From Candidatus Rokuibacteriota bacterium (GTDB taxonomy: Bacteria > Methylomirabilota > Methylomirabilia > Rokubacteriales > CSP1-6): 64,000 nucleotides of DNA. Below are positions 28,465 to 29,731 of this stretch, piece after piece. A program made the translations under genes and the position numbers. The stretch lies in the NCBI GenBank assembly GCA_016184125.1, contig JACPDG010000037.1, forward strand, positions 107,502 through 171,501, written 5' to 3'. Below the pieces are notes generated by a model that was not told the origin of the DNA, searched no databases, and saw nothing but the letters and a program-made list of their open reading frames with translations. Each line of letters opens with the position of its first letter. Positions within the stretch are counted from its first letter, which is position 1.

Positions 28465-29085
28465 TCACAGCCCGCGCAGCAGACCGACGACCTTGCCGAC
28501 GATCCGCACGTGACGCTCGCGCGGATCGATGACGACCGGCGCCATCGTCGGATGCTCGGGCTTGAGGACGATGCGGTCGCCGTCCCGCTGGAAGCGCTTC
28601 ACGGTGGCTTCCGCGTCCACCATCGCGACCACGATGTCGTTCGGCTGCGCCGCGTCCTGCCGGCGCACGAGCACGAGGTCGCCGTCACAGATGTGCGCGC
28701 CGATCATGCTGTCGCCCCGGACACGGAGCGCGAAGACGTCGTCGCCTCCGTTCGGCAGCGCGGCCGGCGCGATCGGCACTTCGCCGTCTCGGTTCTCGAT
28801 GGCGTCGATCGGCGCGCCGGCGGCGATCCGACCGAGGATCGGCACCCGCCGGTAGCCGCCCGGCGCGCTGTCGGTGGGCACGAGCGAGCGCGACGTGCGT
28901 CCCGCGGCCTGCCGGCGCTGAAGCATGCCCTTGCGCTCGAGCGCCTTCAGGTGATCGAAGGCCGCCCGGGGCGTCACACGGAGCTTCTCCCCGATCTCGC
29001 GCACGGTCGGCGGAACGCCATGCGACGCGGTGAACGTGCGGATGAACTGCAGGACCTCGCGCTGTCGTCCGGTCATCTCGCGCAT
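28465..29085 (-). CDS. lexA: LexA SOS repressor
   Basis: N-terminal winged HTH (LT.RQREVLQFI, GVPPTVREIG) and a C-terminal S24 peptidase with the Ser/Lys dyad (GDSM...VKR). Confidence 0.9.
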   Translation of the reverse strand: MREMTGRQREVLQFIRTFTASHGVPPTVREIGEKLRVTPRAAFDHLKALERKGMLQRRQAAGRTSRSLVPTDSAPGGYRRVPILGRIAAGAPIDAIENRDGEVPIAPAALPNGGDDVFALRVRGDSMIGAHICDGDLVLVRRQDAAQPNDIVVAMVDAEATVKRFQRDGDRIVLKPEHPTMAPVVIDPRERHVRIVGKVVGLLRGL

Positions 29086-29130
29086 CCGTGTCTCCCTGTG
29101 GTCCAGGTAGGACCGTATGCGCGAGAATAC

Positions 29131-29154
29131 TCAACTGTTGATGAGGTGTCAACA
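29131..29154. promoter_or_regulatory. Candidate LexA operator: TCAAC-T-GTTGA-TGAGGTG-TCAACA
   Basis: Overlapping palindromes with three GTTGA/TCAAC half-sites about 50 bp upstream of the lexA start. No database comparison was possible. Confidence 0.35.
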
Positions 29155-29185
29155 AAAGTCGACACCAGCAGGGCTCACCCCGGCG

Positions 29186-29731
29186 TTACCCGGGCTCCCA
29201 GGGCTCGCAGACCGGACAGGTCGTAAACCCCTGCTCGCGCGCCTCGGCGACGGACTTGAGGGGAACGCGGTCCGCGGCACCGATCCGCGCGACCCACGAG
29301 CATTCGCGTCGATGGAACAGCCGCGAGCCACGCTGCGCGCAGAACGGCTCGGCCGGCTCTCTCAGCTCGCTCGGCTCCGTTTCCGTCGCCAGCGCGGTCG
29401 TCGTATCGCCCGCGGGGCGCGCGGCCGCGCCCGCGGTCGCGGGCTCGGTCTCCGAGGGAAGCGTCTCGGTCGAGACGGCGCTTCCTGGCGCTGACTCGGT
29501 TGAGGTCATGCCGGCCGGGGGGTGCGCGGACGCACCCGGTGTGTAGACGGGATCCGGCTCGTTGAGGTTCAGATTGGTCTCGACGGTCGAGCGGAACTCG
29601 TCGCTCGCGCGGCGAAACTCCCGGAGCGCGCGTCCGACCATCCGCCCGAGCTCGGGCAGCTTCGATGGTCCGAACACGAGCAGTGCGAGCACGCCGATGA
29701 GCACCATCTCCTGGAGGCCGATGTCGAACAT
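29186..29731 (-). CDS. TatB/TatA-like N-terminus fused to an Ada-type zinc-binding domain
   Basis: N-terminus [30 protein letters not shown].VG...REF.R (Tat family TM plus amphipathic helix). The C-terminus [14 protein letters not shown]...[22 protein letters not shown] resembles Ada_Zn_binding (..V.F..A.EA..AGFRPCKRC.P). It lies directly upstream of lexA on the same strand. Confidence 0.55.
   Translation of the reverse strand: [181 protein letters not shown]

What the first reader, a model, noticed from the sequence alone, without database searches (positions are those of the whole stretch)
28465..29731. TatB-like membrane anchor fused to an Ada-type zinc-binding domain, encoded directly upstream of lexA with a GTTGA-rich palindromic operator candidate
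The ORF at 29186-29731 begins like TatB/TatA ([39 protein letters not shown]). It ends with a Cys4/His segment matching the Ada N-terminal zinc domain pattern (..V.L.S..EA...GF..C..C.P). In Ada that domain senses methylphosphotriester DNA damage and binds DNA. A membrane-tethered Ada-like sensor co-oriented with the SOS repressor has not been described and would link alkylation sensing to LexA control. Between the two genes, TCAAC-T-GTTGA-TGAGGTG-TCAACA (29131-29154) forms overlapping palindromes that are candidates for the LexA box or for the Ada-like domain's site.
Basis: partly seen in the sequence, partly recalled or inferred. Interest (0 to 1): 0.7.

Follow-up and report, generated by a model that had tools for sequence, protein, structure and literature searches.

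The report
TatA protein with Ada-like zinc tail
An uncultured soil bacterium (Rokubacteria) encodes a membrane protein of the Tat protein-export family whose tail ends in a small zinc module folded like the DNA-repair sensor Ada but lacking Ada's reactive cysteine; the neighbouring palindromes are the SOS repressor's own promoter and operator, so this is a mildly novel domain combination, not a shown alkylation sensor.

Summary
ORF 29186-29731 (minus strand) has a TatA/B-family N-terminus, an acidic linker and a conserved 50-residue C-terminal Cys/His module. A canonical lexA (28465-29085) lies 100 bp downstream on the same strand.

Ada's methyl-accepting Cys38 is an invariant His here, and there is no AraC domain, so an Ada-type alkylation switch is unlikely.

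The fusion is conserved in at least 77 Rokubacteria/Methylomirabilota species. It sits next to lexA in 72 of them, while the outer neighbours vary. More distant fusions are not next to lexA.

The tat gene has its own extended -10 promoter of leaderless type and no operator. The palindromes belong to the lexA sigma-70 promoter: a conserved dyad CTCAAC-N4-GTTGAG lies between -35 and -10. In the window this is 29130-29145 with one mismatch, plus a second dyad at 29148-29163.

This dyad is probably the clade's LexA box, a one-base variant of GAAC-N4-GTTC. I could not test it on other SOS genes. The function of the zinc tail is unknown.

The parts
29186..29731 (-). Gene for a 181-aa TatA/B-family protein with a C-terminal Cys3His zinc module. 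Residues 1-55 (nt 29731-29567) are the TM helix, FGP hinge and amphipathic helix. Residues 56-127 are a variable acidic Pro/Thr/Ala/Glu linker. Residues 128-181 (nt 29350-29189) are the zinc module. The stop codon is 29186-29188.
   Evidence: ORF. Pfam TatA_B_E 61.1 bits. NCBIfam TatA subfamily NF011430 64.0 against a cut-off of 62. 100% identical to a protein of a Candidatus Rokubacteria MAG, and more than 100 full-length homologue clusters. Conservation.
29189..29350 (-). Ada-N/'sunset'-type zinc module. The predicted ligands are H140, C144, C172 and C175.
29738..29746 (-). Promoter of the tat-like gene: extended -10, TG-C-TACTCT, ending 6 nt before the ATG. This is leaderless-type geometry.
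   Evidence: TAnnnT lies 6-8 nt upstream of the start codon in 60 of 75 loci (61 counting one at 9 nt), with TG two bases upstream of it in 57. The leaderless reading is an inference from the geometry.
29147..29152 (-). -35 hexamer (TTGACA) of the lexA promoter.
   Evidence: Promoter scan: TTGACA, 17 nt, TATTCT, 10 of 12 matches. It is the only such site in 2 kb, with 0.1 expected. The same architecture is seen across the related loci.
29124..29129 (-). -10 hexamer (TATTCT) of the lexA promoter.
29130..29145 (.). Primary operator dyad CTCAAC-TGTT-GATGAG, one mismatch to the clade consensus CTCAAC-N4-GTTGAG. It fills the -35/-10 spacer and is the candidate LexA box.
   Evidence: It is the top weight-matrix hit in the window at 16.9 bits. 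Across 777 kb of loci, 70 of 70 matches with at most 1 mismatch lie at lexA promoters.
29148..29163 (.). Second dyad GTCAAC-AAAA-GTCGAC, 2 bp from the first and overlapping the -35 hexamer. This tandem arrangement is seen only in the window's own subclade.
   Evidence: Second-best weight-matrix hit in the window at 12.1 bits, with the next at 5.6. L089 has the same layout: GTCATC-ATGT-GTTGAC, 3 bp, CTCGAC-TCCA-GTCGAG.
28465..29085 (-). lexA, a 206-aa self-cleaving SOS repressor.
   Evidence: TIGR00498 196.8 bits. LexA_DNA_bind and Peptidase_S24 domains. The sequence shows directly the Ala-Gly site (RIAAGAP), the Ser (GDSM) and the Lys (TVKRF).
28197..28457 (-). Small ORF after lexA (86 aa here, about 59-70 aa in most relatives) with a C-terminal hydrophobic helix. 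It is a conserved third member of the block.
   Evidence: No Pfam family.
28291..28306 (-). Operator-like element inside the small ORF. On the minus strand it reads CTCGAC-AGGT-GCAGGC. In most relatives it is CTCAAC-ACGT-GAGGAG, preceded by a T7-8 run.
   Evidence: The operator weight matrix at 6 bits or more hits this spot in 42 loci and only 2 other places in 802 kb. Its role is not established.

Best explanation
The gene encodes a TatA/B-family inner-membrane protein of Rokubacteria. By the usual TatA orientation, its N-terminal helix and amphipathic helix sit in the membrane. A flexible acidic linker of about 70 residues then carries a small zinc module into the cytoplasm.

The module is a divergent member of the Ada N-terminal/'sunset' superfamily. 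It has a Cys3His site in which His replaces Ada's methyl-accepting cysteine. The protein is therefore most likely a Tat translocase subunit, or a paralogue of one, with an accessory zinc tail. By analogy with Ada and with the nuclease fusions, the tail may bind nucleic-acid phosphate backbones or another partner. It is not an alkyl-transfer switch.

The gene is transcribed from its own extended -10 promoter of leaderless type. The lexA gene downstream has a separate sigma-70 promoter. Its spacer is filled by a 16-bp dyad, CTCAAC-N4-GTTGAG, with a second dyad over the -35 in this genome. LexA most likely binds there to repress itself.

Shown: the domain identities, the fold match, the His substitution, the conservation, the gene order and the promoter/dyad architecture. 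Inferred: zinc binding, cytoplasmic location, Tat function, LexA binding to the dyad, and any role of the tail.
For: TatA part.
- Pfam 61.1 bits and NCBIfam TatA subfamily above its cut-off.
- The TatA hallmarks are invariant in 26 homologues: polar Q7/E8, F20-G21-P22, F39 and the acidic D44-E45.

Zinc module.
- hhalign puts H140/C144/C172/C175 on Ada C38/C42/C69/C72.
- A profile of the tail finds 932 clusters. Many pass PF02805 (for example P0121, E 1.4e-33) or NCBIfam 'sunset' NF051437 (P0150, 35.7 bits against a cut-off of 27).

Reality of the fusion.
- It occurs in 77 GTDB species loci and in two subfamilies about 50% identical to each other.

Separate promoters.
- The extended -10 before the tat ATG is conserved.
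- The lexA promoter matches 10 of 12 positions with the dyad in the spacer.
- No operator-like hit lies near the tat start in any locus.

The dyad.
- All 70 matches with at most 1 mismatch in 777 kb are at lexA promoters.
- L089 carries a symmetric change in both halves, CTCGAC...GTCGAG.
- The dyad has the same 4-bp spacing as the known GAAC-N4-GTTC LexA box, and tandem sites in lexA promoters are documented elsewhere (PMC4951493).

A Tat context for the fusion.
- In L081 the fusion follows a second tatA that itself has a zinc-ribbon-like tail.
Against: - No tatC or second tatA lies in the window or the fetched loci, so a working Tat system with this subunit is not shown.
- The tat-lexA adjacency is more stable than either flank. 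It holds in 72 of 77 species with at least five different upstream contexts. Pure coincidence would not predict this.
- The block sits beside DNA-repair genes: ATP-dependent ligase, a KaiC-like ATPase and, in one subfamily, an AlkZ-like glycosylase.
- No convincing terminator separates tat and lexA, so read-through co-transcription is possible.
- The module model has only moderate confidence (pLDDT 73).
- The dyad was not found upstream of any other SOS gene, because none was available to test.
Confidence: 0.6

Rival explanations
1. The protein is a membrane-tethered DNA or DNA-damage sensor that is functionally coupled to the SOS repressor. The Ada-like module binds DNA, or reacts with damage or electrophiles through its zinc thiolates, at the membrane, and feeds into or cooperates with LexA control.
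For: - The tail has the Ada fold.
- The tat-lexA pair is kept in 72 of 77 species and in a second subfamily while both outer neighbours change.
- There is no clear terminator between the genes.
- The neighbourhood holds ligase, a KaiC-like ATPase and an AlkZ-like glycosylase.
- Inference only: a Cys3His site carries the same net charge as methylated Ada, which is Ada's DNA-binding state.
Against: - The nucleophilic Cys38 position is an invariant His.
- There is no HTH or AraC domain.
- The module is a generic add-on in many unrelated proteins, some of them secreted.
- The tat gene carries no operator and has its own promoter.
- Fusions in more distant lineages are not beside lexA.
- The module is not strongly basic: about +1 net charge, counted from the sequence.
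Confidence: 0.12
2. The zinc tail has no nucleic-acid role. It is a structural or regulatory add-on, for example a zinc-dependent oligomerisation or docking site, or a zinc reservoir like the zinc-ribbon forms of ribosomal proteins. The position next to lexA is inherited gene order without meaning.
For: - NCBIfam lists 'sunset domain variants' of ribosomal proteins L17, L20 and S2, and the module is fused to many enzyme types.
- L081 has a neighbouring TatA with a different zinc-ribbon tail, so zinc tails on TatA-family proteins recur.
- Distant fusions lack lexA nearby.
Against: - The module and its terminal CPVCEPWEP motif are invariant across the clade, which argues for a specific partner.
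- The pair with lexA is unusually stable.
- The staphylococcal-nuclease fusions suggest DNA binding for at least part of the family.
Confidence: 0.23
3. The CTCAAC-N4-GTTGAG dyad is the site of a regulator other than LexA, or is a promoter-structure element, and LexA of this clade binds a different motif.
For: - The dyad was seen only at lexA and at the small ORF after it, never at another SOS gene.
- The metagenome scan meant to find other targets was uninformative.
Against: - It lies exactly between -35 and -10 of the lexA promoter in about 70 species.
- Dyad symmetry is kept, including one symmetric double change.
- It is one base away from the GAAC-N4-GTTC LexA box with the same spacing.
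- From established knowledge, LexA autoregulation is the rule in bacteria.
Confidence: 0.15

Closest known systems
TatA/TatAd-type subunits of the twin-arginine translocase (Pfam PF02416; NCBIfam NF011430)
   Same: It has the N-terminal TM helix with a polar residue, the FGP hinge with KLPELG, an amphipathic helix with Phe39, and a following acidic motif. It scores above the family cut-offs. From memory, it resembles B. subtilis TatAy and TatAd, which read FGP-KLPE-G...LxEF.
   Different: It carries a 125-residue tail ending in a folded zinc module, whereas known TatA tails are short and unstructured. It is not encoded next to tatC. It scores just under the tatAE (53.8 against 53.9) and tatB (51.8 against 56.5) TIGRFAM cut-offs, so it cannot be assigned to either TatA or TatB.
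N-terminal methylphosphotriester-repair zinc domain of E. coli Ada (PF02805; PDB 1ADN/1EYF, 1U8B, 1ZGW)
   Same: The fold is the same: beta-beta-beta-alpha with the C-x2-C knuckle at the end. Three of the four ligand cysteines and the G-F/Y-x-x-C-x-x-C-x-P motif align.
   Different: Cys38, the methyl acceptor, is His. There is one extra residue between ligands 2 and 3. No AraC-type domain or methyltransferase domain follows. The domain is at a C-terminus and is membrane-tethered. It falls below the Pfam threshold.
'Sunset' domain (NCBIfam NF051437) and the wider His-Cys3 branch of PF02805, and DUF6233 (PF19746)
   Same: It has the H-x3-C ... C-x2-C-x-P pattern and sits at the very end of the protein. 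Proteins retrieved with its profile pass these models. It gives weak DUF6233 hits in 17 of 20 relatives.
   Different: The window protein itself gives no NF051437 hit at E up to 1. It has its own invariant features: W146, the terminal EPWEP, and C131 in the close clade. I found no paper on the sunset domain, so there is no established function to compare with.
LexA boxes of Firmicutes and Actinobacteria (GAAC-N4-GTTC) and of Verrucomicrobia (TGTTC-N4-GAACA, with tandem sites in lexA promoters)
   Same: It is an inverted repeat with a 4-bp spacer that overlaps the lexA promoter. A tandem second site is present in this genome.
   Different: The core is CAAC-N4-GTTG (extended form CTCAAC-N4-GTTGAG), a G-to-C change at the outer core position. 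It is not in the papers I could search. Binding and regulon are untested.

Membership tests
TatA/B/E family (PF02416) | The profile match passes the curated cut-off over the TM helix, hinge and amphipathic helix. | tested here: met
   61.1 bits against 21, residues 4-48. NF011430 TatA subfamily 64.0 against 62.
TatA/B/E family (PF02416) | Assignment to TatA/E or to TatB by an equivalog or subfamily model. | tested here: inconclusive
   TIGR01411 tatAE 53.8 against 53.9. TIGR01410 tatB 51.8 against 56.5. PRK14857 72.8 against 77.
TatA/B/E family (PF02416) | It works with a TatC partner encoded in the genome. | not testable with these tools
   tblastn found no TatC-like sequence in the 64-kb window or in the fetched loci. 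Whole genomes could not be fetched.
Ada N-terminal zinc domain (PF02805) | The profile match reaches the Pfam gathering score. | tested here: not met
   The full-length protein gives no hit. The isolated tail gives 14.6 bits against 23, covering the last 20 residues only. Fifteen of 20 relatives give weak hits, best E 2.5e-4.
Ada N-terminal zinc domain (PF02805) | The fold of N-Ada. | tested here: met
Ada N-terminal zinc domain (PF02805) | Four cysteine ligands, including the nucleophilic methyl acceptor Cys38. | tested here: not met
   hhalign gives H140 at C38, C144 at C42, C172 at C69 and C175 at C72. The His is invariant in 26 homologues.
Ada N-terminal zinc domain (PF02805) | It is followed by an AraC-type HTH that gives sequence-specific promoter binding. 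| tested here: not met
   The protein ends 6 residues after the last Cys, and there is no HTH hit.
Ada N-terminal zinc domain (PF02805) | Zinc binding and methyl transfer from Sp-methylphosphotriesters. | not testable with these tools
   This needs biochemistry.
Sunset domain (NCBIfam NF051437) | The profile match reaches the curated cut-off. | tested here: not met
   The tail gives no hit at E up to 1. Relatives found with its profile pass the model (P0150, 35.7 against 27).
Sunset domain (NCBIfam NF051437) | It lies at the extreme C-terminus and has the H-x3-C ... C-x2-C pattern. | tested here: met
   H140-x3-C144-x27-C172-x2-C175, ending 6 residues before the stop.
LexA repressor (TIGR00498) | The equivalog cut-off is passed, and the Ala-Gly cleavage site and the Ser/Lys dyad are present. 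| tested here: met
   196.8 bits against 110.95. AAG, GDSM and VKR are present in the translation.
LexA operator (SOS box) | A conserved dyad overlaps the lexA promoter. | tested here: met
LexA operator (SOS box) | The same motif lies upstream of other SOS genes such as recA, uvrA and imuA-dnaE2. | tested here: inconclusive
   No such genes lie in the window or loci. The only other recurrent site is inside the small ORF after lexA.
LexA operator (SOS box) | LexA binds it. | not testable with these tools
   This needs a gel-shift or footprint experiment.

The most novel reading that the evidence does not exclude
In Rokubacteriales the TatA-anchored Cys3His Ada-like module is a working partner of the SOS system. 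It binds DNA, or damaged or electrophile-modified DNA, at the inner face of the membrane. Together with lexA and the small membrane peptide it forms a conserved three-gene damage-response unit. That would be a membrane-linked input or effector of the SOS response with no described counterpart.
Probability: 0.1. Interest if true: 0.75.

Novelty: new variant of a known kind. Interest (0 to 1): 0.4.

Why it matters
If the tail matters for Tat function, it would be the first folded, metal-binding cytoplasmic domain described on a TatA-family subunit. It would also give the widespread but unstudied His-Cys3 branch of the Ada domain (NCBI's 'sunset' domain) a system in which to study it.

The very stable pairing with lexA and a small membrane peptide across a whole order of uncultured soil bacteria hints at a link between the membrane and the DNA-damage response, and that link can be tested.

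Separately, the CTCAAC-N4-GTTGAG dyad is a concrete, testable LexA box for a phylum whose SOS system has not been described. This would allow its regulon to be predicted from metagenomes.

Tried and rejected
1. A sequence-profile search of the tail against all PDB chains found nothing meaningful and no Ada (best E 0.23, ribosomal eL8). Only the fold comparison showed the relationship.
2. I tested whether the T7-8 run upstream of the lexA -35 is the terminator of the tat gene. Folding the 42 nt before the run in 39 loci gave no consistent hairpin; z-scores were mostly between 0 and +2. The simple scans found a terminator in only one of three loci. I dropped that reading. The run may be an UP-like element.
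3. I scanned metagenome contigs for the operator outside lexA promoters with CTCAACBNNNGTTGAGTA. Most were low-GC noise, and 13 contigs had GC of at least 0.60, none looking like Rokubacteria. The regulon test failed.
4. Rfam on 27700-30300 gave only sub-threshold chance hits in the repeat element.
5. tblastn with E. coli TatC and RecA against the window and loci found no tatC or recA.
6. Gene-calling or assembly artefact as the source of the fusion is rejected. The same architecture occurs in 77 species and more than 100 protein clusters.
7. The spacing is not conserved, and one arm is the -35 hexamer.
8. A LexA box upstream of the tat gene: none found.
9. The AFDB fold library was not available.
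10. Literature searches for the sunset domain, for LexA in Rokubacteria and for TatA zinc fusions found nothing relevant.
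Full report
**What is there**

Both genes of the finding lie on the minus strand. ORF 29186-29731 (181 aa) is followed after 100 bp by ORF 28465-29085 (206 aa).

The second ORF is a canonical LexA. It scores 196.8 bits on TIGR00498 against a cut-off of 110.95 and has the LexA_DNA_bind and Peptidase_S24 domains. 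The Ala-Gly site, the GDSM serine and the VKR lysine are visible in the translation.

The first protein is 100% identical to a protein of a Candidatus Rokubacteria metagenome-assembled genome that NCBI names a TatA/TatE family subunit.

**The N-terminal part**

- Residues 4-48 match Pfam TatA_B_E at 61.1 bits against a cut-off of 21.
- NCBIfam's TatA subfamily model NF011430 is passed (64.0 against 62). The tatAE and tatB TIGRFAM models are narrowly missed.
- The TatA hallmarks are invariant in 26 homologues: a polar Q7/E8 in the helix, F20-G21-P22, F39 in the amphipathic helix, and the acidic D44-E45.
- I therefore treat it as a TatA/B-family member that cannot be assigned to A or B.
- No tatC or second tatA lies in the window or in any fetched locus.

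**The C-terminal part**

After a variable acidic linker of about 70 residues comes a 50-residue module. Its invariant residues are L138-F139-H140, C144, W146, R149, R155, R165 and C172-P-V-C-E-P-W-E179. C131 is invariant only in the close clade.

Sequence evidence is weak:
- Pfam Ada_Zn_binding does not reach its threshold. The full-length protein gives no hit, and the isolated tail gives 14.6 bits against 23 over its last 20 residues.
- Fifteen of 20 relatives give weak hits, best E 2.5e-4.
- A profile of the tail finds nothing in PDB sequences.

Fold and profile evidence is clear:
- hhalign against E. coli Ada puts H140, C144, C172 and C175 on Ada C38, C42, C69 and C72. I checked that the Ada sequence I used is identical to PDB 1WPK.
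- A profile search of 1.84 billion representative proteins finds 932 clusters. Many hold 2-7 tandem copies of the module. Others fuse it to staphylococcal nuclease, caspase, kinase or SRP54-type GTPase domains.
- Several of these pass PF02805 (P0121, E 1.4e-33) or NCBIfam's 'sunset' domain model. NCBIfam also lists sunset-domain variants of ribosomal proteins L17, L20 and S2.

The tail is therefore a divergent member of the Ada-N/sunset superfamily with a Cys3His site.

**Consequence for the Ada-sensor idea**

In Ada, Cys38 takes the methyl group from the phosphotriester, and that methylation turns Ada into a promoter-binding activator (PMC10814553). Here that position is an invariant His. No AraC-type domain follows. 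The family as a whole behaves as a promiscuous add-on. An Ada-type alkyl-transfer switch is unlikely. Nucleic-acid backbone binding remains possible by analogy with Ada and the nuclease fusions, but it is not shown.

**Distribution and gene order**

- A scan of one genome per GTDB species with patterns from the tail found 77 loci, almost all labelled Rokuibacteriota or Methylomirabilota. In 72 of them lexA follows on the same strand. The median spacer is 100 nt.
- The five exceptions are two contig ends (L060, L076), one IS1595-type transposase inserted after the tat gene (L032), and two loci with no lexA nearby (L081, L082).
- A second subfamily, about 50% identical, keeps the order tat-fusion, lexA, small ORF, (ligase), KaiC-like ATPase, AlkZ-like protein.
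- The upstream neighbour varies. It is a sigma-54 activator in 38 loci (the window among them), a HAD-like gene in about 20, and CtaG, a response regulator or singletons in the rest. The tat-lexA pair is therefore the most stable adjacency in the region.
- More distant fusions (43-45% identity) are not beside lexA. In L081 the fusion follows another tatA that has a zinc-ribbon-like tail and is followed by a DoxX-like ORF (by eye; only the two Tat ORFs were scanned against Pfam). In L086-L088 it is followed by a TauE gene on the opposite strand or by a sigma-54 response regulator.
- The pairing is therefore clade-specific, not a property of the fusion as such.

**Promoters and the palindromes**

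Upstream of the tat ATG a motif GCG-TG-T-TAC(T/C)CT-N6-ATG is conserved. TAnnnT lies 6-8 nt before the start in 60 of 75 loci (61 counting one at 9 nt), with TG two bases upstream of it in 57. In the window this is TG-C-TACTCT at 29746-29738. It is an extended -10 promoter placed for a leaderless or nearly leaderless mRNA (inference). No operator-like site lies near it.

The spacer before lexA holds a sigma-70 promoter. In the window it is TTGACA (29152-29147), 17 nt, TATTCT (29129-29124), matching 10 of 12 positions. In about 70 species the -35/-10 spacer is filled by CTCAAC-N4-GTTGAG, with variants GTCAAC and GTTGAC.

- The exact motif occurs once per locus, always there.
- All 70 matches with at most 1 mismatch in 777 kb are at lexA promoters.
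- The window's copy is 29130-29145, CTCAAC-TGTT-GATGAG, with one mismatch. It is the best weight-matrix hit in the window (16.9 bits).
- The second-best hit (12.1 bits, with the next at 5.6) is a second dyad 2 bp away, 29148-29163 GTCAAC-AAAA-GTCGAC, overlapping the -35.
- A close relative with DNA available (L089, whose Tat protein P0003 is 69% identical) has the same tandem layout. Its main dyad carries a symmetric change in both halves, CTCGAC-TCCA-GTCGAG.

The dyad has the spacing of the GAAC-N4-GTTC LexA box. Tandem sites in lexA promoters are known from Verrucomicrobia (PMC4951493). I conclude that this is most likely the LexA box of the clade and serves autoregulation. I could not test it on recA or other SOS genes. 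None is in the window or loci, and the metagenome scan was swamped by noise.

No consistent terminator separates tat and lexA. Read-through from the tat promoter cannot be excluded.

**Surroundings in the window, in the direction of transcription**

1. Sigma-54 activator without a receiver domain (30135-31265)
2. The tat fusion
3. lexA
4. A small ORF (28197-28457)
5. Tandem 102-nt repeats
6. A convergent GAF-HD protein (25851-27809, plus strand)
7. ATP-dependent DNA ligase (24247-25878)
8. KaiC-like ATPase (23135-24220)
9. A poly(A) polymerase/CCA-adding-type enzyme (21259-22989)

**Verdict**

The interpretation as an alkylation sensor wired to LexA is not supported. What remains is a conserved, undescribed domain combination (TatA family plus a Cys3His Ada-like tail) of unknown function, an unusually stable pairing with lexA in one order of uncultured bacteria, and a candidate new LexA-box variant. 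Interest is moderate.

Noticed in passing
window 28197-28457 (minus strand), element at 28291-28306; also L007-L083 about 770-920 bp after the lexA operator: A conserved small ORF follows lexA. It is about 59-70 aa, has the motif SRAFFL-x-R-x-TQHV and ends in a hydrophobic helix; no Pfam family matches. In this roughly 70%-GC clade, FFL and TQH are encoded by TTT-TTT-TTG and ACT-CAA-CAC in nearly all species. This creates a T7-8 run followed 10 nt later by CTCAAC-A-N3-G-N2-GAG, which resembles the lexA promoter and operator. The operator matrix hits this spot in 42 loci and only 2 other places in 802 kb. Some species have only a 29-41 aa short form that starts right after the element. It could be a second LexA target, an internal start or a slippery run. 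This is unexplained.
   Followed up: partly
window 27957-28189 and 29753-29870; further copies near 41706, 44899, 61857, 63001 and 24120: A GC-rich repeat of about 102 nt, with hairpin-forming GGGGGGCC...GGCCCCCC cores, occurs as 2.3 tandem copies after the small ORF and as an inverted partial copy upstream of the tat gene. The tat-lexA-small ORF block is thus bracketed by inverted copies. Similar elements sit in the intergenic regions of other Rokubacteria loci (L030, L036, L051, L061). It looks like a REP- or MITE-type dispersed repeat.
   Followed up: partly
L081 872-1754: In a MAG labelled Gemmatimonadales, two TatA-family genes stand in tandem. The first is a TatA whose tail holds a CxxC...CxxC zinc-ribbon-like motif (sub-threshold Zn_ribbon hits). 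The second is the Ada-like fusion. Zinc-binding tails on TatA-family proteins may therefore be a recurrent theme.
   Followed up: partly
proteins P0121, P0122, P0150, P0151, P0139, P0224, P0246: The His-Cys3 Ada-like module occurs in arrays of up to 6-7 tandem copies in proteins with signal peptides. It is also fused to staphylococcal nuclease, caspase, protein kinase and SRP54-type GTPase domains. I found no paper that describes this family under NCBI's name 'sunset domain'.
   Followed up: partly
L084 6646-9249, L085 2373-6218; window 23135-25878: Downstream of lexA lies a repair-flavoured set of genes: an ATP-dependent DNA ligase, a KaiC-like RecA-superfamily ATPase and, in the second subfamily, an AlkZ-like protein (the AlkZ/YcaQ glycosylase family). 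None has the operator dyad. In L084 and L085 the ATPase gene has its own TTGAC-N17-TATCCT promoter. In L085 it abuts the TTG start, which is again leaderless-type geometry.
   Followed up: partly
L032 6057-7208: An IS1595-type transposase gene (identified by eye) is inserted directly after the tat fusion gene, and no lexA lies within the 1.5 kb of sequence held downstream. It is the only clear disruption of the tat-lexA pair within the clade.
   Followed up: no
window 29076-29098 and 29104-29126: A 23-nt inverted repeat (78% complementary, 5-nt loop) spans from the lexA -10 region to the lexA start codon. It could form a hairpin in the 5' leader that covers the ribosome-binding site.
   Followed up: no
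window 30135-31265 (minus strand): The gene upstream of the tat fusion is a sigma-54 activator with AAA+ and Fis-type HTH domains but no receiver or sensor domain, an architecture like PspF. It is the upstream neighbour in 38 of the loci with an evaluable upstream flank.
   Followed up: no
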